Positions 2,004-16,736 of a stretch of DNA of 18,977 bases are shown here, in pieces. Position 1 is the stretch's first letter. Every line of letters begins with the position of its first letter. The DNA is from an uncultured candidatus Porisulfidus sp. (GTDB lineage: Bacteria > Pseudomonadota > Gammaproteobacteria > Poriferisulfidales > Poriferisulfidaceae), in NCBI GenBank assembly GCA_965199755.1, contig CBDASZ010000004.1, positions 1 through 18,977 on the forward strand, written 5' to 3'. The position numbers and the translations under genes were made by a program. The notes beneath the pieces were generated by a model. It saw only the letters and a program-made list of their open reading frames with translations, searched no databases and was not told where the DNA came from.

Positions 2004-2774
2004 TCAGTCAAACTCGGTATCTTTCCAGCGGCGAATCTCGCCAAACACCTGATACGGTTCCAGCACCTGATCTGGTAGGCGGCATTGCGCCGCGGCGATC
2101 ACATCAGGCTTATCAAAGCGCAAAAACGGATTGCACTGCTTCTCATTGCCAAGCGCGGACGGCACCGTCGGCTCGCCACGCTGGCGCATCTCTATAGCCC
2201 GTGCGCGGAAATCCTGCAGCGCCGCGTTGTCTGGCTCCACCCAAGTGGCGAACTCCAGATTGTCCAGCGTGTATTCATGTGCGCAATACACCTGTGTGTC
2301 GTCCGGCAATGCGCGAATCTTTGACAGGGAGGCGTGCATTTGTTGCGGGGTTCCCTCAAACAGCCGTCCGCAGCCTCCAATGAACAGGGTATCGCCGCAG
2401 TACAACTCACCGGGCGCATAGTAGGCAATGTGGCTGCGGGTATGCCCCGGCACCTCCATGACTGTGAAGCACGGCAAGCCGGGCACGCCCGTATCCACCT
2501 GCATAGCTTCCGAAAGGCGAATATCCGCCGTGATACGTTCATCGTGCGGTCCAAAGACGCGCGCCTCAGGCCACTGCTGACACAGTGCGTCCACGCCGCC
2601 GATATGATCGGCATGATGATGTGTTATCAGGATCGCGACCAGTTCGAGACCGCGCAGTTGCAAGGCGTTCGCAATGACCTCGGCATCACCGGGGTCGACC
2701 ACCACGGCGCGTGTACCTGCGGACAGCAGCCACAGATAGTTGTCTTGAAATGCAGGAAGAGCGTCAGCCGGCAT
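2004..2774 (-). CDS. gloB: hydroxyacylglutathione hydrolase (glyoxalase II)
   Basis: DNYLWL, THHHADH metallo-beta-lactamase motif, GHT, GDTLFIGGCGRLFEG, CAHEYT, NPFLR. Confidence 0.95.
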   Translation of the reverse strand: MPADALPAFQDNYLWLLSAGTRAVVVDPGDAEVIANALQLRGLELVAILITHHHADHIGGVDALCQQWPEARVFGPHDERITADIRLSEAMQVDTGVPGLPCFTVMEVPGHTRSHIAYYAPGELYCGDTLFIGGCGRLFEGTPQQMHASLSKIRALPDDTQVYCAHEYTLDNLEFATWVEPDNAALQDFRARAIEMRQRGEPTVPSALGNEKQCNPFLRFDKPDVIAAAQCRLPDQVLEPYQVFGEIRRWKDTEFD

Positions 2775-2863
2775 CGCTGCGCGCTACAGTAGAGAGAACG
2801 CGGCACTGTTGTGGCCGCGGCCAGAAGGCAGCGCAATACGGCTGCCCAATCCGGCTGGGAAGA

Positions 2864-3085
2864 TCAGGAATCTGACTTTTCGAACCAGACCCAAGGGCTT
2901 TCCTTGGCAATTGCGAAGAAGATCGCGACGCCCACCACGATGATGATCAGCAGCGCGATTCCCGCGCCGATGCTCCACACCCAATCGTGCATATGGGCTG
3001 TAAATCCAAACGAGTTCATCGCCCATACGCCCAAGGCGACCCATGCCGCCATGACGATTATGCCCAATACTTCTTTGATCCGCAT
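2864..3085 (-). CDS. small hypothetical membrane protein (2 predicted TM helices)
   Basis: 73 aa, two hydrophobic segments flanking AHMHDW; GGAG ribosome binding site just upstream of the ATG; 41 nt downstream of the reductase on the same strand. Confidence 0.75.
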   Translation of the reverse strand: MRIKEVLGIIVMAAWVALGVWAMNSFGFTAHMHDWVWSIGAGIALLIIIVVGVAIFFAIAKESPWVWFEKSDS

Positions 3086-4277: not shown

Positions 4278-4937
4278 TTACAGAACGTTGATTGCGACGT
4301 TGCGCAACGTTCCCGAATCCATATCTTCTTTAGTCGGAAGATTCGAGAACGGGGTCAGTCGTTCTTTGCTGGTGCTGGGATGCTGCTTCACGGCTTCCCA
4401 CCAGTTCTTGACCGCTGCGCGGGAATCCACCAGATCAGAGGCTCCGGCGCTGACTAGAACATTGACACAGGCGCTCCAGTGAATATCGGCCAGTGAGAAC
4501 TCACCGACCAGATAATCCCCACGTTTGGAGGATTGCAACTGCGCGTCCATCACATCGAACAACTTGGCCAGCAGAGCGCGGTCACCGCCGCCTCCACGGG
4601 TTGCGGCCGCCTCAGCCTGAACGTAGTCCGTCGCCAGATGCGCGAACTGATACATTTGCGCCCGGGCCACTCCGTTTCTGGGAACCAGTGAAGGGCCAAA
4701 GCCCTTGTCGTCCAGATAAGACAGAATCGCTCCCGTGCCGTAGACCACATTTTCCAGGTCCTTGAGCACCGGGGCGCTGCCTAGTGGAGACATCGACGTG
4801 ACTTCGTCGCCTCCCTGAATGACGTGCGTTTCAATATCCACACCCTTCTCGCCAGCGGTCTGCAGACACTTCGCAGTATCAATGCAGGTGGGGTGGCCGT
4901 AAAGGTGCATGGCGCTTGCGAGCTTGTCGCCAATCAT
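4278..4937 (-). CDS. glutathione S-transferase fold protein, divergent
   Basis: 219 aa; PLGSAPVLKD cis-Pro loop, AILSYLDDK helix, YLVGEFSLADI C-terminal GST motif; GAGGAG RBS upstream. Confidence 0.85.
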   Translation of the reverse strand: MIGDKLASAMHLYGHPTCIDTAKCLQTAGEKGVDIETHVIQGGDEVTSMSPLGSAPVLKDLENVVYGTGAILSYLDDKGFGPSLVPRNGVARAQMYQFAHLATDYVQAEAAATRGGGGDRALLAKLFDVMDAQLQSSKRGDYLVGEFSLADIHWSACVNVLVSAGASDLVDSRAAVKNWWEAVKQHPSTSKERLTPFSNLPTKEDMDSGTLRNVAINVL

Positions 4938-4971
4938 AATTGCTCCTCTCGATTTTGAGCTTTAGCGTTGA

Positions 4972-5151
4972 TTAGTCTTCAATCTTCAAAGCGCCGGACG
5001 GACATTGCGCGACCACATCCCGCACCTTGTCCTCCGGTGCCGCGGTCACATCAATAACGAATTGCCCGTCTTCAACTTTGAAAACTTCCGGGGCACCCGA
5101 CACACACTTGCCAGCGTGAATACAGGTGTTCTCATCCCAAGTTACTTGCAT
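4972..5151 (-). CDS. small Fe-S protein, YjdI/Fer4_19-type divergent 4Fe-4S mono-cluster ferredoxin (59 aa)
   Basis: Absent from the ORF track. Translates as MQVTWDENTCIHAGKCVSGAPEVFKVEDGQFVIDVTAAPEDKVRDVVAQCPSGALKIED, with CxHxxxC and CPSGAL motifs; AGGAG RBS at 5161-5165. Confidence 0.9.
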   Translation of the reverse strand: MQVTWDENTCIHAGKCVSGAPEVFKVEDGQFVIDVTAAPEDKVRDVVAQCPSGALKIED

Positions 5152-5230
5152 GGTTATTCTCTCCTGCAGTTAAAAATTACATCCCGCCGCATGAAGCCAA
5201 AAGATGTTTTCAGTTTCTCTTTGCGGCCGT

Positions 5231-5246
5231 CTGTATATTATCACAG
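5231..5246. promoter_or_regulatory. LexA/SOS-box-like operator CTGT-N8-ACAG overlapping a candidate extended -10 (minus strand TGTGATAATAT)
   Basis: CTGTATATTATCACAG matches the gammaproteobacterial LexA consensus with an AT-rich spacer; about 80 nt upstream of the ferredoxin ATG. Confidence 0.55.
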
Positions 5247-5253
5247 GATGGCG

Positions 5254-7341
5254 TCAATCTTGCACCGGCTGCTCGATCTCTTTCATGGTTAGTTTGACGC
5301 GCCCAAGTTTGTCCACATCCAGCACCTTCACACAGACCTCCTGACCTTCGGACAACTCCGAATCCACGCTCTTGACGCGGTGGGTGGAAATCTGCGAGAT
5401 ATGCACCAGCCCGTCCTTGCCTGGCAACAGGCTGACAAAGGCACCGAAGTCCATGATGCGCACCACGCGACCGGTGTAGATCTTGCCAATCTCGACCTCG
5501 CTGGTGAGCAGTTCAATATGCGCGCGGGCCTTCTCCGCCTGTGCGCTTTCGGTTGAGGCGATTTTCACCAGGCCGTCATCGTCAATGTCAATGGTGGTGC
5601 CCGTCTCTTCGGTCAGCGCGCGGATGGTTGCCCCGCCCTTGCCAATCACATCGCGGATCTTGTCCGGATTGATGCGGATGGTCAAAAAGCGCGGCGCGTA
5701 GTCCGACATGTTCTCGCGCGGCTCCGCCAGCGCCTGATTCATCTCGCCGAGGATATGCAACCGACCGTCGCGGGCTTGCGCCAGCGCCTGCTCCATGATC
5801 TCGCGCGTAATGCCGTCAATCTTGATGTCCATTTGCAGCGCGGTGATGCCGTCGTTTGTGCCAGCCACCTTGAAGTCCATGTCGCCTAAGTGATCCTCGT
5901 CGCCCAGAATGTCGCTCAGTACGGCGAAGGCGTCACCCTCTTTGATCAGGCCCATGGCGATACCTGCAACAGGTGCCTTGATCGGCACGCCGGCATCCAT
6001 CAACGACAGACTGCTGCCGCACACAGTGGCCATGGAACTGGAGCCGTTCGACTCGGTGATCTCGGATACCACGCGCAGCACATAAGGAAAATCCTCCGGG
6101 TCCGGCATCACCGCCATCATCGCGCGCTTGGCCAGTTTGCCGTGCCCGATTTCGCGCCGCTTCGGTGCCAGCATCATGCTGATCTCGCCCACTGAAAACG
6201 GCGGAAAATTGTAATGTAGCAGGAACGGATCGCGATATTCACCTTCCAGCGCGTCGATAATCTGCGCATCGCGCGTGGTGCCCAGCGTGGTCATCACCAG
6301 TGCCTGCGTCTCACCGCGTGTAAACAAAGCACTGCCGTGCGTGCGCGGGAACAGTCCGGTGCGAATAAAGATGGGTCGTACATCGGACTTGCTGCGTCCG
6401 TCAATACGTGGATTGCCGTCCAGCACACGCGCCCGCACCAGTTGTTTCTCCAGATCCTTGAACGCGCCCGTGACAGCTTCTTCCGTGGTGTCGTCTCCGG
6501 CCAGTTCGGTCACGGCGACTGCCTTGATTTCGGCGACGCGATTCTGGCGTTCCATTTTCTCGCCAATCTGATAGGCCGCGGCCAGATCATCCTGACACTG
6601 CGCCTGTACGCGCTCCGCCAGCGCCGCATCCACTTCCGGCGCATTCCAACCCCATGCCGCAGGCGCGACCTCATCGCGCAGAGCTTCGATGGCGTCAATC
6701 GCCACCTGCATGCCTTCGTGTCCGAACATCACCGCGTCCAGCATTACCTGCTCAGACAGGAATTCGGCTTCCGACTCCACCATCAGCACCGCGCCGCGCG
6801 TACCGGCCACGACCAGATCCAGCTGGCTTTCCCGCACCTGGCTCACAGTCGGGTTGAGCACATACTCGCCGTCGCAATAACCCACCCGTGCGCCGGCGAT
6901 TGGGCCTTGGAACGGCATTCCTGACACCGCCAGCGCCGCGGAAGCGCCGAGCATGGCCGGAATATCCGGGTTCAGATCCTTGTTTAAGCACAGCACATTG
7001 GCGATGATCTGCACGTCCTGGCGATAGCCTTTCGGAAACAGCGGGCGAATCGGGCGGTCAATCAGCCGCGAGGTCAGAATCTCTTTTTCGCTGGGGCGAC
7101 CTTCGCGCTTGAAGAAACCACCGGGAATGCGCCCGGCGGCGTAGGTCTTTTCCTGATAGTTGACCGTCAGCGGGAAGAAGTCCCGCGACGGATCAGCCTG
7201 TTTGCTACCTACCGCGGTGACCAACACCACGGTCTCGTTCATATGCACTAGCACAGAGCCGGAGGCTTGTCGGGCGATTTCGCCGGTTTCGAGGGTCACG
7301 GCATGCTCGCCGTATTGAAAGCTTTGTGTGATCGGTTTCAT
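5254..7341 (-). CDS. pnp: polyribonucleotide nucleotidyltransferase (PNPase)
   Basis: [51 protein letters not shown]-terminal KH and S1 domains. Confidence 0.99.
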
Positions 7342-7348
7342 GTGTTTC

Positions 7349-7391
7349 GGTCAGGGGTGCAAGAATAAAACAAACCGCCAGGCACCCCACC
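7349..7391 (-). promoter_or_regulatory. stem-loop in pnp leader (possible RNase III/PNPase autoregulation structure)
   Basis: GGGGTGC(7354-7360)/GCACCCC(7382-7388) inverted repeat with GGT/ACC extension, ending 7 nt before the pnp start; function inferred by analogy to the E. coli pnp leader. Confidence 0.4.
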
Positions 7392-7446
7392 GGCCTGATG
7401 CGGATAAGGAAAATGCGTCAACGAGAGAATAGGAAGTGGTCCGCAA

Positions 7447-7716
7447 TCAGCGGCGCAGACCCAGCGACTCAATCAACGTCGCGTAACGCGCGTGATTTCG
7501 TTTGCGCAAGTGTTGCAGCAAACCGCGGCGCGCGTGAACCATTTTCATCAGTCCATGCCGAGAATGCTGATCTTTGGGGTGCGACTGAAAATGCCGCATC
7601 ATCTGGTTGATTCGGGACGTCAGCAACGCCACCTGAACTTCAGGCGAGCCGACATCATCCGGCGCGCGCTGATATTTCTCGATGATTTCTGACTTTTCTG
7701 GTGCAGAAAGTGGCAT
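7447..7716 (-). CDS. rpsO: 30S ribosomal protein S15
   Basis: DVGSPEVQVALLT, HPKDQHSRHGL, LGLRR; 89 aa; directly upstream of pnp. Confidence 0.98.
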   Translation of the reverse strand: MPLSAPEKSEIIEKYQRAPDDVGSPEVQVALLTSRINQMMRHFQSHPKDQHSRHGLMKMVHARRGLLQHLRKRNHARYATLIESLGLRR

Positions 7717-7770
7717 GGATGCTCAATAATCCCGGTTGCAAACAATGAGGCCCGAAAGCCCCTCAAATTC

Positions 7771-7786
7771 GGCGCGCATTGTAGCA
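7771..7786 (-). promoter_or_regulatory. rpsO promoter: extended -10 TGcTACAAT followed by GC-rich discriminator GCGCGCC
   Basis: Minus strand reads TGCTACAATGCGCGCC, typical of stringently controlled ribosomal-protein promoters. Confidence 0.6.
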
Positions 7787-7792
7787 CACGGC

Positions 7793-8353
7793 TCAACTCG
7801 GAGGCATCGCGTCGCGCAAGGCTAGGCGCAAGTAATACAGCATTGAGATCAGCGTCATCGCCGCAGCAAGGCCGAGCAGGCTCAACCCCCACAGGTACAG
7901 CGGCGCGTCAAACTGCGGCGAGGCCCACAACAACAACAGCAGCGCCACCAGCTGCAGCAGCGTCTTCAGCTTGCCGAGCCACGACACCGCCAGCCGGCGC
8001 GGCTTCGCCGCATTGGCCAGCCATTCGCGCAGTGCGGAGATCGCGATCTCCCGACCGATGATGATGCAGGCCGCCGCCAGCAACAGCAGACTGCTGTCGC
8101 GCCACACCAGCAACACCAGCGCCACTGATACCAGCAACTTGTCGGCGACCGGATCGAGAAACTCGCCGAACGCTGACTGCTGTCCCAGCCGCCGCGCCAG
8201 AAATCCGTCCGCCCAATCCGTCAGCGAGGCCAGCGCAAACACCAAGGCGGCTGCCTGCGAGCCCCAGCCGGGCACAAAAAACATGGCGGTGAACACCGGA
8301 ATCAGCGCGAGGCGCAGTCCGGTCAGCAGATTCGGTATCGTCACAACGGTCAT
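7793..8353 (-). CDS. pgsA: CDP-diacylglycerol--glycerol-3-phosphate 3-phosphatidyltransferase
   Basis: IPNLLT, TDWADGFLARR...FGEFLDPVADK CDP-alcohol phosphotransferase motif; ATGA overlap with uvrC. Confidence 0.96.
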   Translation of the reverse strand: MTVVTIPNLLTGLRLALIPVFTAMFFVPGWGSQAAALVFALASLTDWADGFLARRLGQQSAFGEFLDPVADKLLVSVALVLLVWRDSSLLLLAAACIIIGREIAISALREWLANAAKPRRLAVSWLGKLKTLLQLVALLLLLWASPQFDAPLYLWGLSLLGLAAAMTLISMLYYLRLALRDAMPPS

Positions 8354-10185
8354 GGCCCACTCTCATGCAGATAATCATAAATCTCCTGCGCCAGCACGGT
8401 GCCGACGCCAGAGACGCGCGCCAGTTCCCGCGCGGTGGCGTCACGCACGCCTTGCCAGCCACCGAAGTGGCGCAGCAGGGCCTGACGGCGCTTGCTGCCA
8501 ATGCCCGGAATTTCTTCCAGCGGCGACGCCGCGCGGCGGCGGGCGCGGCGCTTGCGGTGACCAGTAATGGCGAAGCGATGCGCCTCATCGCGAATCTGCT
8601 GCACCAAATGCGAGGCGACCGATTGTTTCGGCAGGCGCAGCGGGTCTTCCAGCGTGTCCGCATACAGCGTCTCATGTCCCGGCTTGCGCCCGGCACCTTT
8701 GGCGACCGCGACCAGCACCACGCCCGGCACGTCCAGTTCGTCCAGCACCGCGCGCGCGGCATGCCATTGTCCGACCCCGCCATCCACGAACAGCACGTCC
8801 GGGGCCGGGTATTCTCCACGCTTGATGCGCGCGTAGCGCCGCGTCAAGGCGGCGCGCATGGCTCCGTAATCGTCTCCGGGAGTCACACCTTTAATGTTAA
8901 AGCGACGGTATTCCTGACGGCACGCCCCTTCCGCGTCAAACACCACACAGGAGGCCACCGGCGCCTCACCGCGCGTGTGGCTGATGTCGAAACATTCCAG
9001 CCGAACGGGCACGCTGTCGAGCAGCAACGCTTGCGCCAACGCCTCCAGCCGCTCTCCTATGCCGGCGCGCGACTGTGCGCGTACAGCGATGGCCTGCTGC
9101 GCGTTGCGCAACGCCAGATCCACTTGCGCCCGACGGCGTCCGCGTACCCGCGCATACAAGCGCACTTTGGCCTGCGTGCGCTCACTCAGCCACTCCTCCA
9201 GCAGAGATTGCTCGGAAACCGGATGGCTGAGCAGGACCTCCGGCGGGGCCGCGCGATCCAGATAGTACTGGCCGATAAAGGCGCGCAGCAATTGAGAAGC
9301 TTCTGCCTTTGGTTCCAGTCCCTGCGGGAAATAACTGCGGTGACCGTGGCTCGCGCCTTCGCGAAAACTGCCAACATCCACACAGTGCCAACCGCCCTCG
9401 CACACCGCCGCCAGCACATCGAAGTGACGCCCGCCCACGCCAGTGCGGTATTGACTTTGGATCGCTTGCAGCGACTGCACGCGATCGCGCCACTCACCGG
9501 CCTCCTCATAGTCCAGCCGCGCAGCAGCAGCGTCCATGCGCCCGGTCAGATCCGCCAGCACTTCCTCATTGCGCCCTTCCAGAAAGCGCAGCGCCAGTGT
9601 GACATCGGCGCGATAGGCTTCCGGTTCGATATAACCGACGCACGGGGCGGTGCAACGCTTGATCTGGTATTGCAGGCAGGGGCGCGAGCGGTTGCGAAAG
9701 AAACTGTCGGAACACTGTCGAACGCGGAACAGCTTCTGCAGCACGCTTAAGGTGTCGCGCAGCGGGCCCACTCCGGCGTAGGGTCCGAAGGTGCGGCCTT
9801 GACGGCGGCGACGACCGCGATAGAACGACAGACCGGGATAGGTCTGGTGCGTTGAGGCGTACAGATAGGGATAACTCTTGTCGTCGCGCAGCAGGATGTT
9901 GTAGTGCGGGTGATGCTGCTTGATCAAGGTATTCTCCAGCAGCAGCGCATCCGCCTCGGTAGCGGTGACGGTGACCTCAACCCGCGCCATAGCATCCATC
10001 ATCTGTCGCGTACGCGGTCCCAGCGAGCGGCTGCCGAAGTAGGTGGAGACGCGCTTTTTCAGATCGCGCGCCTTGCCGACGTACAGGATCTCATCGTGTG
10101 TATCCAGCATCCGGTAGACGCCCGGCGCATGCGTCAGGGTGCGCAAAAAGTCCTGCGCTGCAAACGGTTCGGAGGGCGCAGTCAT
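8350..10185 (-). CDS. uvrC: excinuclease ABC subunit C
   Basis: GIY-YIG (PGVYRM...YVGKARDL), LLRDDKSYPY, ECFDISH, DGG, RDEAHRFAI, HhH. Start moved to ATG 10185 (GAGGGAG RBS; avoids overlap with fabH). Confidence 0.97.
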   Translation of the reverse strand: MTAPSEPFAAQDFLRTLTHAPGVYRMLDTHDEILYVGKARDLKKRVSTYFGSRSLGPRTRQMMDAMARVEVTVTATEADALLLENTLIKQHHPHYNILLRDDKSYPYLYASTHQTYPGLSFYRGRRRRQGRTFGPYAGVGPLRDTLSVLQKLFRVRQCSDSFFRNRSRPCLQYQIKRCTAPCVGYIEPEAYRADVTLALRFLEGRNEEVLADLTGRMDAAAARLDYEEAGEWRDRVQSLQAIQSQYRTGVGGRHFDVLAAVCEGGWHCVDVGSFREGASHGHRSYFPQGLEPKAEASQLLRAFIGQYYLDRAAPPEVLLSHPVSEQSLLEEWLSERTQAKVRLYARVRGRRRAQVDLALRNAQQAIAVRAQSRAGIGERLEALAQALLLDSVPVRLECFDISHTRGEAPVASCVVFDAEGACRQEYRRFNIKGVTPGDDYGAMRAALTRRYARIKRGEYPAPDVLFVDGGVGQWHAARAVLDELDVPGVVLVAVAKGAGRKPGHETLYADTLEDPLRLPKQSVASHLVQQIRDEAHRFAITGHRKRRARRRAASPLEEIPGIGSKRRQALLRHFGGWQGVRDATARELARVSGVGTVLAQEIYDYLHESGP

Positions 10186-10198
10186 TGTGGGCGCTCCC

Positions 10199-11164
10199 TC
10201 AGGCCAGGTAGCGCACCAGCGCAGACCCCCAGGTGAACCCGCCACCGAAGGCCTCCAGCATTAGAATATCCCGGTCGCGGATGCGGCCCTCCCGGATCGC
10301 CGTATCCAGCGCCAGCGGCACCGAGGCCGCCGAGGTGTTGCCGTGGCGATCGACCGTGATCACCACCTGCTCCAGCGACAAGTCAAGTTTGCGGGCGGTC
10401 GCCGCGATAATGCGGAGATTGGCCTGATGCGGCACCAGCCAGTTGACCTCATGGCGGTCCATGCCGTTGGCTTCCAGTGTCTCCTCAACGATCCGCTCAA
10501 GCGTGGTCACCGCCATGCGGAACACTTCGTTGCCCTGCATCTCAATGTACTGGCCGATGTCGCGCTCGCCGTCGCCCGGCGGCACCTGCAACAAATGGTT
10601 GTAACTGCCGTCCGCGTGCAGATGCGTCGACAGAATGCCTGGCTCCTCGCTCTCCTGCAGCACGATGGCACCTGCGCCATCGCCGAATAGCACACAGGTG
10701 GTGCGGTCGGTCCAGTTGACCAGTCGCGACAGCACTTCTGAGCCGATCACCAGCGCCACCCGCGCACCGCCGGTGAGAATGTGACGGTGGGCGATGTCCA
10801 GTCCGTAGACAAAGCCGCTGCAGACCGCCTGCACGTCAAATGCCGGTCCGCCGTGAATGTCGAGCAGGCGCTGCACCTGACAGGCGGTGCTGGGGAATTT
10901 CTGATCAGGCGTGGTGGTCGCCAGCACAATCAGGTCGACCGCGTCGGCCTCGAGACCGGCCATGTCCAGCGCCTCTTGCGCTGCCTGCGCCCCCATGTAA
11001 GCGGTAGTTTCGCCCTTGTGCGGGTCGGCGATGTGGCGCTGCAGAATGCCGGTACGCTCACGGATCCACTGATCAGTGGTGTCGACGAAGTCTTCCAGTT
11101 CCTCGTTGCGCACAATCTGCTCAGGCAGAAAGGAGCCGGTGCCGGAGATTTTCGTGTAGGTCAT
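10199..11164 (-). CDS. fabH: 3-oxoacyl-ACP synthase III
   Basis: AVCSGF catalytic Cys, PHQAN His, GNTSAAS Asn, FGGGFTWG. Confidence 0.97.
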
Positions 11165-12195
11165 GAGTCTTGTGTCTGGCGGGTGTTCAAAAGCGGCTCG
11201 ATATGTTGCTGAATGTGCGTCGGCACATTGCGCCGCGCCGCCTGTTGGGCAGCGCGAATCGCTTGCGCGAAAGCCGTCGCATCTGCTCCTCCATGACTTT
11301 TGATGACCACGTGACGCAAACCCAGTAGATGTGCACCATCATACTGCCGCGGGTCCACGCGGTGGCGAAAACGGCGCAGCAATGGTGCGGAAGCCAGTAG
11401 CGCCAGACGCGGATACAGGCCGCGTTTGAACTCGCCTTGCAGAAAGCGGCTGAGCATACGGGCCACGCCTTCCGTGGTCTTGAGCGCGATGTTGCCAACA
11501 AAACCGTCACATACCACCACATCCACTTCTCCGCAATAAATGTCGTCGCCCTCGACATACCCAATATAGTTGAGGTCCGTGTCGCGCAACAAGGCATCCG
11601 CCTGTTGCACTTGCCGGTTGCCCTTGATCGCCTCCTGTCCAACATTCAGCAAGCCGATGCGCGGACGCGCAATGCCTTCGAGTTCCGCCGCCAGCACCGA
11701 ACCCATTACCGCGAATTGCAGCAACCGCTCCGCGCGGCAGTCGACGTTGGCCCCCAAATCCAGAATATGCGTGCGTCCGTTCAGCGAGGGCATCGTGGTT
11801 TCAAGGGCCGGACGATCAATGCCGGGGAGCATGCCCACCACCGAATGCGACAGCGCCACCAGTGCGCCGGTATTGCCAGAACTGACAAAGGCTTGCGCCT
11901 GGCCCTGCGCGACCATCTCCAGGCCGCGGCGCATGGAGGAGTCCTGCTTGCCGCGCAGCGCGTTGAGCGGCGACTCGGCCATTTCGATGCGTTCGGAGGC
12001 ATGCTGCACCAGCAGATGCGCATGATCGACCGCGCCCAGCGTCTGCAGGCGCTCGCAAATGAGCGGCTCATCGCCGACCAGTAACAGACGTAGCGAGGCG
12101 TCTTCGTTGATGCAATTGACCGCGGCCGGCAGTACGCTGTCGATCCCGTGATCGCCACCCATCACGTCCAGCGCGATTGTCAGGGGATCGGTCAT
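11161..12195 (-). CDS. plsX: phosphate acyltransferase
   Basis: [37 protein letters not shown]; lies between rpmF and fabH. Confidence 0.97.
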
Positions 12196-12229: not shown

Positions 12230-12439
12230 TCAGCCGTCGGTTTCGGAGTTCTCTTCCGGTTCCGGCTGCTTGATGTCGAAGATCTGGCGACCGCGATAGA
12301 AACCATCGGCGGCGACGTGATGACGCCGGTGCCAGGTCCCGGTGGTGGGATCCTCAGAGAGAGTGGCGCTGCTAATCGCATGGTGCGCACGGCGCATGTC
12401 CCGCTTCGAGCGGCTTTTGCGGCTTTTCTGAACAGCCAT
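12230..12439 (-). CDS. rpmF: 50S ribosomal protein L32 (69 aa, no Zn-binding cysteines, acidic C-terminal tail)
   Basis: [19 protein letters not shown]...HRRHHV..DGFYRGR; start at ATG 12439 inside the longer track ORF, with AGGAAGAG upstream. Confidence 0.95.
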
Positions 12440-12617
12440 GATGATGCTCTTCCTGTTGCTCTGCCAGCCAGCGCGCCACAGCGCGCCTGTTGCGAGGCTT
12501 GTTGTAAATCGGAATGCTATTGTACGGGATACGGTTGAGGCGCTTGTCACGGTGTGCGGTGTTGGGCGTTATGGGATTTGGCGGATCAGCGGTGCGGGGA
12601 GCCATGTTGCGCATCAT

Positions 12618-12808
12618 GTCACCCACGCGGGTAACGGTGACGGTCTGTGGTGCGCTCCAGGTGGTCGCGGTGAACGTCAGCGCACCAGAGGCCGTGGCGG
12701 CATCCGTGTCATCACTTGATGGCGTGATGGTGACCGGACCGTCGGCTCGGTGTCCAGCACCACCGTGTAGGTGGCGGTGTTGCTTTCTTCCACCTCCAGC
12801 ATCAGGGG
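12618..12808 (-). pseudogene. frameshifted remnant of one Calx-beta/Ig-like surface-adhesin repeat
   Basis: Two frames join as PLMLEVEESNTATYTVVLDTEP(T)/GPVTITPSSDDTDAATASGALTFTATTWSAPQTVTVTRVGD, with a 1-nt frameshift near 12741. TYTVVL and LTFT..W..PQTVTVT are typical of this repeat type. Confidence 0.75.
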
Positions 12809-12865
12809 GGCTATGAGCCGAATAAGCCCCAAATATCAGGCTCAAATCGCCTGCCAGTGCACGCT

Positions 12866-13115
12866 GTTGCTGCCGAAACACAACTCAGGCATCAGAATGC
12901 TCCGACTGTTCGCGGCGGCAACCCGGGTCGGGCAAGCCCGACGGGACTCGCGTTTGAAGTAGCGAAACAGATTGCTGCGGTGCCGCGAGGAGAACCTTCC
13001 TCTAACTGCATGGGCCACAGCGTGAGCCATGTTGGCCGACATTTGCAACTCACAGCGCCAATATAGAAATGCCAAGGATTTCTGCACAACCGGAACACCC
13101 TGATGCCTGAATCTT
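12866..13115 (-). ncRNA. putative IS110-associated structured RNA (bridge/seek-RNA-like) downstream of the recombinase
   Basis: Uninterrupted 24-bp closing helix 13087-13110/12885-12908 (19 Watson-Crick plus 5 G-U pairs, complete only on the minus strand), enclosing two sub-domains; followed by a UUCG hairpin at 12866-12884. Confidence 0.7.
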
Positions 13116-13120
13116 GTAAT

Positions 13121-14293
13121 TTACAAAGGCGTCGTTCCCACCTCCGCATCCCCGCAACGCGGAATTTCGTGGCACACAATATCCCAGACAAAGCCGGTCA
13201 ACTCCCGCGCGATCGCGACGCATACGACCTTCTGACTCTTGCCGGCGTCCAGCAATTCCTGATAGCGTCGACACAGGCGCTGCTGCGCCTTCCAGGCTAC
13301 CGCCTGTGCGTGCGCCGAAGAGCGCGCATCATCCGTCTTTTGCGCCATATAAGCCGTCTGGCGCGCCGGGAAGCGATAGCACCAGCCCGCCTCCACTAGC
13401 ACCCGCCGGGCGTGCTGGTTGCCCGCCTGCGTCACCCCGCCGGTGCGGCGACGCTCACCGGAACTGTAAATGCTCGGCACTAGACCCAAATACCCCATCA
13501 GACGGGTGGGCGACTCAAAGCGCGTCAGATCGCCTAACTCTGACAGCAGCGTGGTGGATGACAACTGATCAAAACCGCGCAAGGCCATCAGGCTGTTCAC
13601 CACCGGGGCCCAAGACCACTCTCCGACCAGCAGGCGCAACTTGCGATCAATTTCCGAAATGCGGGAGTTCGACAGGCGCACCGCCGCAATGTATTCGTCA
13701 CGCGCTTCATTTTGCGCGGCGTATGGAAAGGACAACGATTCCAGCCAGCTGAAGTGCTTGTGCGTCCAGCGTTTGCGGTTGCTCGGCCAGTGATGCCCAT
13801 GACGCAAGGCGAAGGCATTCAGTTGCTGGCGCACAATCTGCCCCTGCATCTTGAAGTCGCTGCGACAACGGCACAAGTCCCGAATCGCCTCCTGCTCCTG
13901 ATCAGGGATCCACACCGGGCGCAATTCACCAGCGCGCAACAGGCGCGCCAGACGCAACGCATCTCTAGGGTCGGTCTTGATGCGGGCGTGCCGCGGCGGC
14001 ACCACCACCTGGCATTCAAAGCCCAGCGCCGTCAGCGTCTTGTATAGCGCATATCCGGTGGGACTCGCCTCATAACAATACAGACACGGCTGCGCCAAGG
14101 CGCTCAACCGCTCGGTCATATCAGTGACCGCCTCGGTGTTATTCGCGATGGTGTCGAAAAATTCCGGCTCCTCGCGCCCCGCCGCCGCGGTCGCCACCGC
14201 AATGCTGTTCTTGTGGACATCCATGCCCACATACAACGCATACTGCTGGAGAGACGATGCGGCCTGCACTTGCGTGCCCTCGCGCGGCGGCAT
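13121..14293 (-). mobile_element. IS110-family DEDD transposase/recombinase (390 aa)
   Basis: YVGMDVHK (D25), CYEASP (E75), IKTDPRDA (D108, D111); C-terminal domain ELGDLTRF...YLGLVPSIYSSG (S278)...GNQHARRVLVEA...VAIAREL. Confidence 0.93.
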
Positions 14294-15120
14294 TAGTCCA
14301 TCGACTGCTTCGCCGCAGAGTCCAGCCGAAGGAGCGTCTCCAGAAGGGCGCGCATGCGCTGCAGAGGCCAGGCATTGGGGCCATCACTGCGCGCTTCGTC
14401 AGGACGCGGATGAGTTTCCATAAACAGCCCCGCCACCCCAACGGCGACAGCCGCACGCGCCAGTGCCGGCACGAATTCACGTTGTCCGCCAGACGCATTG
14501 CCCTGCCCGCCGGGCAGTTGCACCGAATGCGTCGCGTCGAACACGACTGGACAGCCTGTCTCGCGCAGCACCATCAGCGCGCGCATATCAGACACCAGAT
14601 TGTTGTAACCAAAACTCGCACCGCGCTCACACACCATCAGGCGCTCACCACCACCCGCGCGCGCTTTCTCCACCACCGGCAACATCTCCCAGGGCGACAG
14701 AAACTGTCCTTTCTTCAGATTCACCGGACGACCGCTTGCCGCGACCCGCGCAATGAAATCCGTCTGCCTGCACAAGAATGCCGGCGTCTGCAACACATCC
14801 ACCACCGACGCCACCTCATCCACCGGCGTGTCTTCATGCACATCGGTCAGCACCGGCACCGAGAACTGTTCCCGCACTCGCTGCAGGATGCGCAAGCCTT
14901 CCTCAATCCCAGGACCGCGAAAACTTTGGCCGCTGGTTCGGTTCGCCTTGTCAAAAGAGGCCTTGAAAACATAGCGCAGGCTCAACTCTTGAGTCAACTC
15001 ACTCAGGTGTTGTGCGACTTCCATCACCAGCGCCTCATCTTCAATCACGCATGGCCCGGCGATCAGAAACAGCGGCTGCTTGCAGCCGGCCGTGAAGTCA
15101 CAGAACTCAACGGCGCTCAT
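14293..15120 (-). CDS. kdsA: 3-deoxy-8-phosphooctulonate (KDO8P) synthase
   Basis: [42 protein letters not shown]; ATGA overlap with pyrG. Confidence 0.98.
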
Positions 15121-16736
15121 GCGACCGTCCGCGCCGCCTCAATCAGGCTGTTGAACAGCGGGTGTCCGCGCCGTGGCGTGGAGGTGAACTCCGGGTGGAA
15201 CTGGCAGCCAATAAACCACGGATGATCACGCAACTCAATGGCTTCCACCAGTTGATCGTCGTGTGACCGCCCGACCACCGCCAGACCATTGTCGGTCAGA
15301 CGCGCGACATAGTTCGCGTTGATCTCATAGCGGTGCCGATGCCGTTCGTGAATCAGCGCCCCATCGTAAATCCCGTGCAATTGCGAGCCTTCCTGAAGCA
15401 GGCAAGGCTGCTCGCCCAGACGCATGGTGCCGCCCAGATCCGCGTGTGCGTCGCGAAATTCCCGCTCCCCTTCAGGCGTCATCCATTCGGTGATCAGCGC
15501 CACCACCGGATGCGGCGTGTCGGGATTGAACTCAGTACTGTGCGCGCCCTCAAGACTCAAGCACTGACGCGCGTAATCAATCACCGCGACTTGCATGCCC
15601 AGACAAATGCCAAGGTACGGAATCTTCTTCTCACGCGCGTAACGCGCCGCTAGAATCTTGCCCTCAATGCCGCGCTCGCCAAACCCGCCCGGTACCAGAA
15701 TCACATGCGCACCCTCCAGTTGCGCGACGCCTTCCTGTTCGATCTGCTCGGAATCCACATAGCGAATAGTCACCCGCACCCGATGACACAGCCCGGCGTG
15801 CTGCAGCGCTTCGTTCAGCGACTTGTAGGATTCGGTCAGATTGACGTACTTGCCCACCATTGCCACCACCACCTCGTCTTTTTGCGCCTTACGCGCCGCC
15901 ACCACCGACTGCCATTCAGACAAGTTCGCCGCCGGCAACTCCAGACCGAAACGACGCACCACGATTTCATCGAGGTGCTGCGCGTGCAGCGCCAGCGGAA
16001 TCGCGTGAATGTCATCCTGATTCAGCACTTCGATCACGGACTCAGGCGCGACGTTGGTAAACAGGGCGATCTTGTCGCGCTGCTCTTGCGGAATCGGCAT
16101 ATCGGTGCGACATAGCAAGATGTCCGGCTGAATGCCGATCGAGCGCAACTCCTTGACCGAATGCTGGGTCGGCTTGGTCTTGATCTCGCCCGACACCTGA
16201 ATGTACGGCACCAGCGTCAGATGCAGATAGGCCGCCTGCGTCGGCCCCATCTCCCCGCCCATCTGGCGGATCGCCTCAATAAACGGCTGTGACTCAATAT
16301 CGCCGACGGTGCCGCCGATCTCAACAATGCACACGTCCGCGCCGGCCGCACCCATTTCAACACAGCGTTTGATCTCGTCAGTGACGTGCGGGATCACCTG
16401 CACAGTAGCGCCTTCATAACCGCCCTTGCGCTCACGCGCAATCACCCGCTCATAGATCTGTCCGGTGGTCCAGTTGCTCGCCTTGCTGGCGCGAAAATTA
16501 ACGAAACGTTCGTAATGGCCCAGATCCAGATCAGTCTCGGCCCCGTCCGCAGTGACGAACACCTCACCGTGCTGAAACGGACTCATGGTGCCCGGATCAA
16601 CATTGATGTACGGATCCAGTTTGATCATGGAAACGCTAAGCTCACGCGCCTCCAGAAGCGCGCCGAGCGACGCCGCCGACAAACCCTTGCCCAGCGAAGA
16701 TACCACCCCACCCGTGATGAAAATGTATCGCGTCAT
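15117..16736 (-). CDS. pyrG: CTP synthase
   Basis: [50 protein letters not shown]. Confidence 0.99.

What the first reader, a model, noticed from the sequence alone, without database searches (positions are those of the whole stretch)
12885..13110. Strand-specific ~225-nt multi-domain RNA immediately 3' of the recombinase
Seen: 10 nt after the stop, UCAGGCAUCAGGGUGUUCCGGUUG (13110-13087) pairs over 24 contiguous bp with CAGUCGGAGCAUUCUGAUGCCUGA (12908-12885). All 5 non-Watson-Crick positions are G-U on the minus strand and would be A-C on plus, which points to selection on RNA structure rather than a DNA inverted repeat. Domain 1: AGAA-AU-CCUU/AAGG-UUCU closes a large internal loop capped by the GUGAGUU/GGCUCAC hairpin (13053-13022). 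Domain 2: UCGCGGC/GCCGCGA and GCAAUCUG/CGGGUUGC lead to a junction with hairpins UUCGC/GCGAG and GUCGGGC/GCCCGAC. Inference: a bridge-RNA-like guide whose second domain is a three-way junction rather than the simple internal loop described for IS621.
Basis: partly seen in the sequence, partly recalled or inferred. Interest (0 to 1): 0.8.

Follow-up and report, generated by a model that had tools for sequence, protein, structure and literature searches.

The report
Bridge RNA of an immobilised IS1111-type element
The folded stretch after the recombinase gene is a real guide ("bridge") RNA of a known type, but here the pair sits as one fixed, inherited copy that selection keeps intact, so the host may have taken it over.

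Summary
12885-13110 (minus strand) folds as described. The closing stem is 24 contiguous pairs, 19 Watson-Crick plus 5 G-U, and those 5 would be A-C on the plus strand. The fold is conserved: 28 of 65 pairs show compensatory changes in 13 genus homologs, and 35 of 49 pairs in 22 sequences that include distant relatives.

It lies 3' of an IS110-family gene. Multi-copy relatives of that gene carry IS1111-type subterminal inverted repeats. This is therefore the 3'-encoded bridge RNA/seekRNA already described for IS1111 elements, multi-loop second domain included (Durrant 2024). It is a known kind.

What is unusual:
- There is one copy per genome, and most sister species hold it at the same locus.
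- The gene is under strong purifying selection (dN/dS 0.02-0.15).
- The element ends are lost or decayed.
- The putative target loop is almost invariant, while the donor segment drifts.

In seven sister genomes the loop-predicted site lies at the 5' ends of inverted porin genes on either side of the gene. The flanked cassette is inverted in two species. A domesticated RNA-guided invertase is possible but unproven, and the window's own copy is not next to porins.

The parts
12885..13110 (-). Whole structured RNA (bridge RNA/seekRNA homolog), 226 nt, starting 10 nt after the recombinase stop codon
   Evidence: Fold. Covariation. Strand from G-U against A-C counts. RNA-library contigs at 12886-13124 (run X6) and 12859-13080 (run X7).
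13087..13110 (-). 5' arm of the closing stem
   Evidence: 24 bp with 12885-12908. In the genus the stem runs to 29 pairs, 13 of them with compensatory changes (helix 1). Distant relatives have it too.
12885..12908 (-). 3' arm of the closing stem. Conservation among homologs ends a few bases beyond it.
12991..13083 (-). Domain 1: helices AGAA/UUCU and CCUU/AAGG close a large internal loop with an apical hairpin. This is the putative target-binding loop.
   Evidence: Helices 2-5. The loop letters are nearly invariant in the genus. Assigned by analogy with relatives.
13061..13072 (-). 5' side of the domain-1 loop (GCAUUUCUAUAU), the putative right-target guide. Its reverse complement reads TAG-AAATGC.
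   Evidence: Position. In 10 of 14 relatives the equivalent segment complements 4 or more nt of the right flank beyond the AG core, against 10% of 138 non-cognate pairs.
12999..13010 (-). 3' side of the domain-1 loop (UGCAGUUAGAGG), the putative left-target guide plus core
   Evidence: L041 and L042 differ by one base here and by the same base at their left junction. Support from contiguous matches in relatives is weak.
12910..12988 (-). Domain 2: helices UCGCGGC/GCCGCGA and GCAAUCUG/CGGGUUGC, hairpin UUCGC/GCGAG, and the window-only hairpin GUCGGGC/GCCCGAC. It corresponds to the donor-binding multi-loop of relatives, but its guide segment is not conserved here.
   Evidence: Helices 6-8. The segment varies in the genus. 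In relatives a segment here repeats the last bases of the right end (by eye).
13121..14293 (-). IS110-family (IS1111-type) recombinase gene, 390 aa from the ATG at 14293. Conservation with homologs begins near residue 18.
   Evidence: Profile match to solved bridge recombinases ISCro4 and IS621. dN/dS 0.02-0.15.
14293..14297 (-). TAATG: the kdsA stop codon overlaps the recombinase ATG, which leaves no room for a non-coding left end

Best explanation
The 226-nt element is the bridge RNA (seekRNA) of an IS1111-type member of the IS110 family, encoded 3' of its recombinase on the same (minus) strand.

Inferred route of synthesis: it is transcribed as the tail of the kdsA-recombinase message and released or stabilised by its long closing stem, which could be an RNase III-type substrate.

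Inferred mechanism: the RNA binds the recombinase. Domain 1 presents two single-stranded guide segments that read both strands of a DNA site around an AG core. For the window that site is about ...GCAGTT-AG-AAATGC. Domain 2 corresponds to the donor-binding multi-loop.

Unlike a working insertion sequence, this copy has no recognisable left end, no subterminal inverted repeats and a drifting donor segment. It is single-copy, vertically inherited and under purifying selection. The recombinase-RNA pair is therefore immobilised yet maintained, and most likely still acts on DNA sites matching the domain-1 loop.

Shown: the structure, its strand, its conservation, family membership of the protein, loss of the ends, and selection.

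Inferred: RNA processing, protein binding, guide assignment in this genus, and present activity.
For: Protein family.

RNA fold and covariation: 28 of 65 pairs compensatory; 0 of 500 shuffles; 35 of 49 pairs across 22 sequences.

Strand.

Spread of the RNA: its core is found by nhmmer 3' of the gene in 30 of 80 loci fetched from other genomes.

IS1111 features in relatives: multi-copy relatives define elements of 1.5-1.8 kb. 16 of 23 loci tested have 12-15-nt subterminal inverted repeats.

Guides in relatives: the right-flank guide match is 4 nt or more in 10 of 14 cognate pairs, against 10% of non-cognate pairs. L041 and L042 show a matching change in loop and junction.

Literature: IS1111 bridge RNAs lie in the right end, often with a multi-loop donor domain (PMC11208160, passages). 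seekRNA lies downstream of tnp in the IS1111 family (PMC11187229, sections 6, 8, 9). Recombination at an AG core in ISPpu9 (PMC12288879, passages).

Immobilised and maintained:
- Single copy in G000.
- One close ortholog in 13 of 15 other genus genomes.
- Shared flanks in most of them.
- All 13 ORFs intact; median dN/dS 0.062 over the 54 of 78 pairs with usable dS.
- Recombinase dS is at least as large as kdsA dS in all 5 genome pairs where both could be computed.
- No left-end space and no terminal repeats.

Expression: RNA-library contigs cover the RNA region in 2 runs of one study.
Against:
- The left-target guide assignment rests on weak contiguous matches in relatives: mean 2.4 nt cognate against 1.6 nt non-cognate.
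- Rfam 15 has no matching family, so membership rests on my own alignments.
- The RNA evidence is unstranded contigs from an RNA library that may hold DNA.
- No promoter-like site was found at 12500-14600, so co-transcription with kdsA is only inferred.
- The protein is 373-390 aa, longer than the 330-350 aa given for IS1111-family transposases (PMC11187229, section 6).
- In the window's genome the porin genes that carry the best candidate sites are frameshifted pseudogenes, so the pair may have no present substrate there.
Confidence: 0.85

Rival explanations
1. Domesticated RNA-guided invertase. The recombinase and its RNA have been taken over by the host to recombine the 14-nt site TGCAATTAG-AAATG at codons 4-7 of paralogous porin genes. 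This inverts the ~3-kb cassette (or porin-bearing segments) and so switches which porin body is joined to which promoter and start. The window's copy would be the same system moved away from the porins and acting in trans, or now idle.
For: - The site predicted from the genus domain-1 loop, before any search, occurs with 1 mismatch at the start of both inverted porin genes flanking the gene in G001. Roughly 0.03 such hits are expected within +/-3 kb.
- In 5 genomes the (A/G)ATTAGAAATGG form lies almost only beside the gene, 2-3 sites per genome, the one exception being a single site far from the gene in G001. The other 1-mismatch hits are scattered, and the reversed-pattern control gives 1-2 hits per genome.
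- An inverted site pair flanks the gene in 7 of 8 genus loci.
- G001 has a 939-nt, 97% inverted repeat around a 3-kb cassette.
- Relative to the outer flanks the cassette is inverted in G003 and G008 compared with G001, G007 and G012.
- The loop is invariant while the ends and donor segment decay.
- Strong purifying selection without transposition.
- From recall, not from a call: Piv of Moraxella is an IS110-family invertase that acts inside pilin genes. PMC11187229 section 6 does place Piv among the relatives.
Against: - Homologous recombination between the 939-nt repeats would explain the inversions without any site-specific enzyme. The breakpoints cannot be placed inside the near-identical arms.
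- Domain 2 does not match the porin site, and no bridge reaction using two target loops was looked up or shown.
- G000, G014 and G015 hold the gene far from porins.
- G005 has four porin copies and no recombinase found with this query.
- G000's porins are pseudogenes.
- The variable position of the left guide does not track the sites: G009 and G013 have U where the sites have G.
- The genus genomes are kin, so the repeated pattern is essentially one observation.
Confidence: 0.3
2. Decaying fossil. An IS1111-type element inserted at a porin-like site in the genus ancestor, lost its ends, and now merely persists. The RNA and gene have no present function.
For: - Ends are lost or degenerate.
- The donor segment drifts.
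- The left junction in G001 still reads ...ATT-AG followed by a decayed repeat-like stretch.
- The gene was not found in 2 of 15 genus genomes.
- Porins in G000 are dead.
Against: - 13 of 13 ORFs are intact, with dS of 0.6 up to saturation and dN/dS 0.02-0.15.
- RNA helices are kept by compensatory changes.
- The domain-1 loop letters are nearly invariant over the same span.
- A neutral fossil would have accumulated stops and broken pairs.
Confidence: 0.1
3. A structured 3' untranslated region with no guide role, such as an mRNA stabiliser, a terminator, or an RNase III site that regulates the recombinase message.
For: - The stem is 24-30 bp long and lies directly after the stop codon.
- No separate promoter was found.
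- The closing stem may well be a processing or stability element in addition to its other roles.
Against: - This does not explain two conserved internal domains with invariant single-stranded loops.
- It does not explain the loop-to-flank matches in active relatives.
- It does not explain why the same architecture follows IS110-family genes in 30 of 80 loci from other genomes.
- No terminator-like site was called at the RNA's end.
Confidence: 0.04
4. A DNA-level inverted repeat (a recombination site or element end) rather than an RNA.
For: The arms form a 32-nt, 75% inverted repeat at the DNA level (I1). IS1111 elements do have inverted repeats.
Against: - All 5 non-Watson-Crick positions are G-U on one strand only.
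- Across the genus there are 109 G-U cells against 14 A-C cells.
- In relatives the true subterminal repeats lie elsewhere, one in the left end and one 70-250 nt beyond the stem.
Confidence: 0.01

Closest known systems
Bridge RNA / seekRNA of IS1111-group elements of the IS110 family (ISEc11, ISPa11, ISKpn4; Siddiquee et al. 2024; Durrant et al. 2024)
   Same: - Encoded in the non-coding region 3' of a DEDD recombinase on the same strand.
- Two structured domains with single-stranded guide segments that read both strands of the flanking DNA around a short core.
- Second domain is a multi-loop.
- Relatives of this element have 12-15-nt subterminal inverted repeats.
   Different: - The window's copy has no left end, no subterminal repeats and no conserved donor segment.
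- It is a single, vertically inherited copy under purifying selection.
- The RNA is wholly enclosed by a 24-30-bp stem. I could not see the figures or supplements, so I cannot say whether that stem has been described.
- The protein is about 40 aa longer than the stated IS1111 range.
IS621 bridge RNA and recombinase (IS110 group; structures 8wt6 and others)
   Same: Distant protein homology: profile E-value 6.5e-8 to IS621 and 1.2e-8 to ISCro4. Same two-loop logic of target and donor recognition.
   Different: - The IS621 RNA is 5' of the gene, about 177 nt (recalled), with two simple internal loops and a CT core (recalled).
- Here the RNA is 3' of the gene, 226 nt, with an inferred AG core and the guide order reversed, as reported for the IS1111 type (abstract of PMC11187229).
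- A single-sequence search finds no PDB match.
Piv invertase of Moraxella (a domesticated IS110-family recombinase that inverts a pilin segment)
   Same: If the novel reading is right, both are immobile IS110-family recombinases acting on inverted sites inside the 5' parts of surface-protein genes next to them. Piv is listed as a relative in PMC11187229 section 6. Its biology is recalled.
   Different: No guide RNA is reported for Piv in what I read. Here a conserved bridge RNA is retained. Inversion by this enzyme is not shown.
ISPpu9 with the Ssr9 small RNA (Pseudomonas putida; PMC12288879)
   Same: An IS110-family element with a small-RNA gene downstream of tnp and recombination at an AG dinucleotide.
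   Different: ISPpu9 is placed in the IS110 group, is multi-copy and mobile, and its bridge RNA is not Ssr9. Ssr9 is reported as not essential.

Membership tests
IS110-family bridge RNA (IS1111-group seekRNA) | Lies next to, and on the same strand as, a DEDD IS110-family recombinase gene | tested here: met
   Pfam PF01548 plus PF02371. NF033542 at 225 bits, cut-off 140. Profile hits to ISCro4 and IS621. The RNA starts 10 nt after the stop codon.
IS110-family bridge RNA (IS1111-group seekRNA) | Located in the long non-coding region 3' of the gene (IS1111 type) | tested here: met
   Literature.
IS110-family bridge RNA (IS1111-group seekRNA) | Conserved secondary structure with two loop-bearing domains, supported by covariation | tested here: met
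IS110-family bridge RNA (IS1111-group seekRNA) | Loop nucleotides complementary to the target DNA flanking the element | tested here: inconclusive
   Met in relatives for the right flank (10 of 14) and by the L041/L042 change. The window's copy has no recognisable insertion junctions. The best candidate sites lie elsewhere: C1:329464 and C1:332719 in G000, each with 2 mismatches to the window's predicted 12-mer.
IS110-family bridge RNA (IS1111-group seekRNA) | Loop nucleotides matching the donor (the element's own ends) | tested here: not met
   In relatives a domain-2 segment repeats the right end (by eye). In the window and genus that segment is variable and no ends exist to match. This counts against 'a working insertion sequence'. 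It does not count against homology of the RNA.
IS110-family bridge RNA (IS1111-group seekRNA) | RNA is made and binds the recombinase | tested here: inconclusive
   Contigs from 2 RNA libraries of one study cover 12886-13124 and 12859-13080. They carry no strand information, and DNA carry-over is not excluded. Binding cannot be tested with these tools.
IS1111 group of insertion sequences (the element as a whole) | Subterminal inverted repeats of 7-17 bp at both ends | tested here: not met
   Present in 16 of 23 relatives tested. Absent in the window: no credible repeat pair brackets the element, and kdsA abuts the start codon.
IS1111 group of insertion sequences (the element as a whole) | Conserved GL-P----S(t)G motif in the C-terminal domain | tested here: met
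   The translated protein reads GLVPSIYSSG. The motif is as given in PMC11187229 section 6.
IS1111 group of insertion sequences (the element as a whole) | Mobile: several copies, or copies at unrelated sites with intact junctions | tested here: not met
   Single copy in G000. One ortholog per genus genome, mostly at a shared locus.
Rfam families | Match to a curated covariance model | tested here: not met
   No hit at gathering score in the whole window. Only chance-level hits at E above 5 in 12600-14600.

The most novel reading that the evidence does not exclude
A bridge recombinase and its bridge RNA have been domesticated in a genus of small-genome bacteria whose relatives' records are titled as sponge-metagenome MAGs. 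The pair no longer moves. Instead the conserved target loop directs recombination at a 14-nt site in the signal-peptide codons of paralogous porin genes, inverting DNA segments to switch porin variants. That would be a natural RNA-guided phase- or antigenic-variation switch. The window holds the same system, translationally coupled to kdsA and separated from its now decayed porin substrates.
Probability: 0.3. Interest if true: 0.85.

Novelty: new variant of a known kind. Interest (0 to 1): 0.6.

Why it matters
The RNA itself is a further member of a class described in 2024, so the structure alone is not news.

The context may be. In the papers I read, bridge recombinases appear as parts of mobile insertion sequences and as engineering tools. 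Here the recombinase-RNA pair has lost the element ends, is inherited vertically as one copy across species whose synonymous sites are near saturation, and is still under strong purifying selection with an almost invariant guide loop. That pattern points to a host function.

If that function is RNA-guided inversion at porin genes, it would be a natural example of programmable recombination used for surface variation. It would also show how a guide RNA survives domestication, and it would supply a compact two-site inversion system whose cognate site is already known. The hypothesis can be tested directly with long reads and a two-plasmid assay.

Tried and rejected
Rfam: gathering-score scan of the whole window gave 0 hits. 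A permissive scan of 12600-14600 gave 3 hits at E 5.7-7.6, which is chance level.

Single-sequence z-scores do not separate the strands: -3.58 against -3.18. I relied on covariation and G-U counts instead.

PDB single-sequence search: 0 hits. The profile search worked.

The plasmid protein search gave only generic 'IS110 family transposase' labels and no ISfinder name.

Terminal repeats in the window: the only pair that brackets the element (12763-12785 with 14422-14444, 23 nt, 74%) lies inside kdsA on one side. I take it as chance.

Donor-type matches between the genus domain-2 segment and either the stem's 3' arm or the porin site: none convincing, by eye.

I looked for reciprocal breakpoints that would tie G000's kdsA/rpmF position to the porin sites. 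G000 is rearranged relative to G001 at many places, so nothing could be concluded.

In both porin remnants of G000, homology to the G001 porin start is lost a few bases upstream of the site. Because this is also the natural start of the coding region, I do not count it as evidence.

Read laying:
- The RNA runs show no contigs over the kdsA part (14288-14800) or most of the recombinase gene.
- The two RNA contigs end at different places, so no RNA end can be inferred.
- The high depth at 12722-12808 comes from a repeat shared with other organisms.

Literature search for a natural domesticated bridge recombinase (terms 'bridge RNA', 'domesticated', 'IS110', 'phase variation', 'invertible', at least 3 of 5): 18 papers, 13 listed, none on this by title or abstract. 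This one search does not show that it is not in print.

The supplements and figures of PMC11208160 and PMC11187229 (consensus structures, Extended Data Fig. 10, Supplementary Figs 6-7) were not visible. They may already show this subfamily's RNA and its long stem.

Rows left out:
- A2 omits L018, the 50%-identity paralog of G006.
- A3 uses 10 of the 13 genus rows (L006, L008, L011 left out as near-duplicates).
- A3 uses 12 of the 15 relatives (L059 and L047 are identical copies; L036 was also left out).
- One search uses the 14 relatives in which both junctions could be set from the inverted repeats.
- dN/dS: 24 of 78 pairs had saturated or undefined dS and were left out of the median.

Full report
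**1. What is in the window**

The minus strand carries pyrG (15117-16736), kdsA (14293-15120), a 390-aa ORF (13121-14293), a 226-nt non-coding stretch, about 330 nt of gene debris, then rpmF and plsX. The 390-aa ORF matches Pfam DEDD_Tnp_IS110 and Transposase_20. It also matches NCBIfam NF033542, 'IS110 family RNA-guided transposase', at 225 bits against a cut-off of 140. A profile of 20 homologs (A1) reaches the solved bridge recombinases ISCro4 (E 1.2e-8) and IS621 (E 6.5e-8). The single sequence reaches nothing in the PDB. The kdsA stop overlaps the ORF's ATG as TAATG.

**2. The observation**

- The 24-bp closing stem is exactly as described: 19 Watson-Crick pairs and 5 G-U on the minus strand, with the same 5 positions A-C on the plus strand. 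Every helix word is at the stated coordinates.
- Folding energy alone does not separate the strands (z -3.58 against -3.18).
- Rfam has no match.

**3. Conservation**

- The gene is single-copy in its 1.39-Mb genome.
- 13 of 15 other genomes of the genus hold one ortholog at 66-74% identity. A database search lists thousands of homologs.
- The roughly 235 nt after the stop align in all 13 genus sequences, and conservation ends a few bases beyond the stem's 3' arm.
- RNAalifold predicts 65 pairs, 28 of them with compensatory changes.
- On that structure 96.1% of 842 cells pair, against 35-45% for slid partners, and 0 of 500 shuffles reach any measure. The sequences are kin, so the shuffle control overstates. 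The slid control and the many pair types per column do not depend on that.
- G-U cells outnumber A-C cells 109 to 14, so the RNA strand is the recombinase strand.
- An HMM of the alignment finds the RNA core 3' of the gene in 30 of 80 loci fetched from other genomes. These include Alcanivorax, Halomonas, Marinobacter, Chromatiaceae and others by record title.
- An alignment of 10 genus and 12 distant sequences keeps 49 pairs, 35 with compensatory changes. The long closing stem is among them, with up to five pair types at one position.
- The three-way junction in domain 2 comes from a hairpin inserted only in the window's sequence.

**4. What family it belongs to**

Identical or near-identical copies within single genomes delimit relatives of 1.5-1.8 kb. 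Their left ends begin about 100 nt before the ORF. Their right ends extend 70-250 nt beyond the RNA's closing stem. 16 of 23 relatives tested carry 12-15-nt subterminal inverted repeats, each separated from an AG by 3-5 nt. These are the defining marks of the IS1111 group.

What the papers say:
- Durrant et al. 2024 (passages read) place the IS1111 bridge RNA in the right end. They note that in many IS1111 orthologues the donor-binding nucleotides sit in a multi-loop.
- Siddiquee et al. 2024 (abstract and sections 6, 8, 9) show seekRNAs of 82-154 nt from the 3' non-coding region that co-purify with the transposase. They suggest the short form is processed from a longer transcript.
- The ISPpu9 study reports recombination at an invariant AG.

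**5. Guide assignment in relatives**

I set the junctions from the repeats and the AG. The reverse complement of the 5' side of the domain-1 loop then matches the right flank for 4 or more nt beyond AG in 10 of 14 elements. The same is true of 10% of 138 non-cognate pairings.

The 3' side of the loop carries the left flank plus AG, but contiguous matches are short: mean 2.4 nt against 1.6 nt.

Two 98%-identical copies in one genome, L041 and L042, differ by C/A at the left junction and by the same C/A in the 3' loop side. They also differ by three bases in the 5' loop side, which their right flanks do not explain.

A domain-2 segment repeats the last 6-9 nt of the right end and is followed by a complement of the left end. 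I read this by eye and did not score it.

So domain 1 behaves as the target loop and domain 2 as the donor multi-loop.

**6. What is odd about this copy and its genus**

- There is no room for a left end, and no repeat pair brackets the element.
- In the genus the left-end region is decayed and differs from species to species.
- The domain-2 guide segment varies freely.
- The domain-1 loop letters, by contrast, are nearly invariant.
- All 13 ORFs are intact. dN/dS is 0.020-0.145, median 0.062, over the 54 of 78 pairs with usable dS.
- The recombinase's dS is at least that of kdsA in each of the 5 genome pairs where both could be computed, for example 1.29 against 1.09 for G000-G014. There is therefore no sign of recent transfer.
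- Most genus members hold the gene at the same locus. G000 and G014 share a different one, between kdsA and rpmF, while other genomes have kdsA next to mgtE. G015 has a third.

A single, end-less, vertically inherited copy cannot be kept intact by selection for transposition. That points to a host-level function.

**7. The porin lead**

In G001 the gene, the RNA and a 306-aa gene with no Pfam match lie in a 3-kb segment between two inverted Porin_4 genes. The repeat arms are 939 nt long and 97% identical.

Using the rules from section 5, the genus loop predicts the site AATTAG-AAATGC. AATTAGAAATGG occurs at codons 4-7 of both porin genes, in inverted orientation. Counting three further matching bases, the match is 14 contiguous nt.

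In five genomes the (A/G)ATTAGAAATGG form lies almost only beside the gene, with one exception, a single such site far from the gene in G001. An inverted pair flanks the gene in 7 of 8 loci. Relative to the outer flanks, the cassette is inverted in G003 and G008 compared with G001, G007 and G012.

This fits a domesticated RNA-guided invertase. It also fits homologous recombination between long repeats combined with an ancestral target preference. Several facts weigh against the invertase reading:
- Domain 2 does not match the site.
- The variable guide position does not track the sites.
- G005 has porins but no recombinase found.
- G000, G014 and G015 hold the gene away from porins.
- G000's two porins are frameshifted pseudogenes that keep near-cognate sites.

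I put this reading at about 0.3.

**8. Expression**

Two metatranscriptome runs of one study hold contigs that match without any difference at 12886-13124 (239 nt) and 12859-13080 (222 nt). One of the runs also has contigs on rpmF and on two parts of the recombinase gene. Contigs carry no strand, and DNA carry-over cannot be excluded, so this is a weak positive. No promoter-like site lies in 12500-14600. Co-transcription from kdsA and later processing at the long stem is an inference.

**9. Verdict**

The structure is real, strand-specific and conserved. It is a bridge RNA/seekRNA of the IS1111 type, which is a known kind. The element around it is not a working insertion sequence. It is an immobilised recombinase-RNA pair kept by selection. 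That is the part worth following up, and the porin-inversion hypothesis is its most testable form.

Noticed in passing
L108 (G001) 4560-11560; also L109, L110, L117-L119, L121: Paralogous ~630-aa Porin_4 genes stand in inverted pairs (or 3-4 copies). Their 5' and 3' parts are near-identical, the middle about 650 nt differs, and the terminator region is a perfect 53-nt inverted repeat. This is the pattern expected for a variable surface-protein family homogenised by gene conversion.
   Followed up: partly
window 12372-12881 (minus strand), especially 12677-12832: Between the RNA and rpmF lie frameshifted fragments resembling a repeat domain of a large surface or adhesin-type protein (TYTVVLDTEPT...). 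The stretch 12739-12773 is a repeat present at very high depth in all four runs laid, from other loci or organisms.
   Followed up: no
window 14293-14297: The kdsA stop and the recombinase start overlap (TAATG), which suggests translational coupling to an essential LPS gene. The closest relative, G014, has about 60 nt between them.
   Followed up: partly
G000 C1:329461-332730: Two convergent porin pseudogenes with several frameshifts each. Both keep the near-cognate site at their 5' ends, and both lack the usual start codon region.
   Followed up: partly
L108 8565-9485 (minus): A 306-aa gene with no Pfam match shares the cassette with the recombinase in G001, G007, G004, G003, G002, G008 and G013. 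It was not found in G000 with this query. By eye its C-terminus looks BRCT-like.
   Followed up: no
L044/L045 (Halomonas sp. HK25 record) 2756-3085: A perfect 166-nt tandem duplication covers the second RNA domain and the right end of a related element, giving two donor-type domains in one copy.
   Followed up: no
L059 and L055: Related elements occur as head-to-tail tandem or nested copies in two genomes: a second copy begins right after, or within, the right end of the first.
   Followed up: no
window as a whole: The window is an entire 18,977-bp contig (C4) of a 4-contig, 1.39-Mb assembly. Gene order around kdsA, mgtE and the porin locus differs widely from sister genomes, so the genome is heavily rearranged.
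   Followed up: partly
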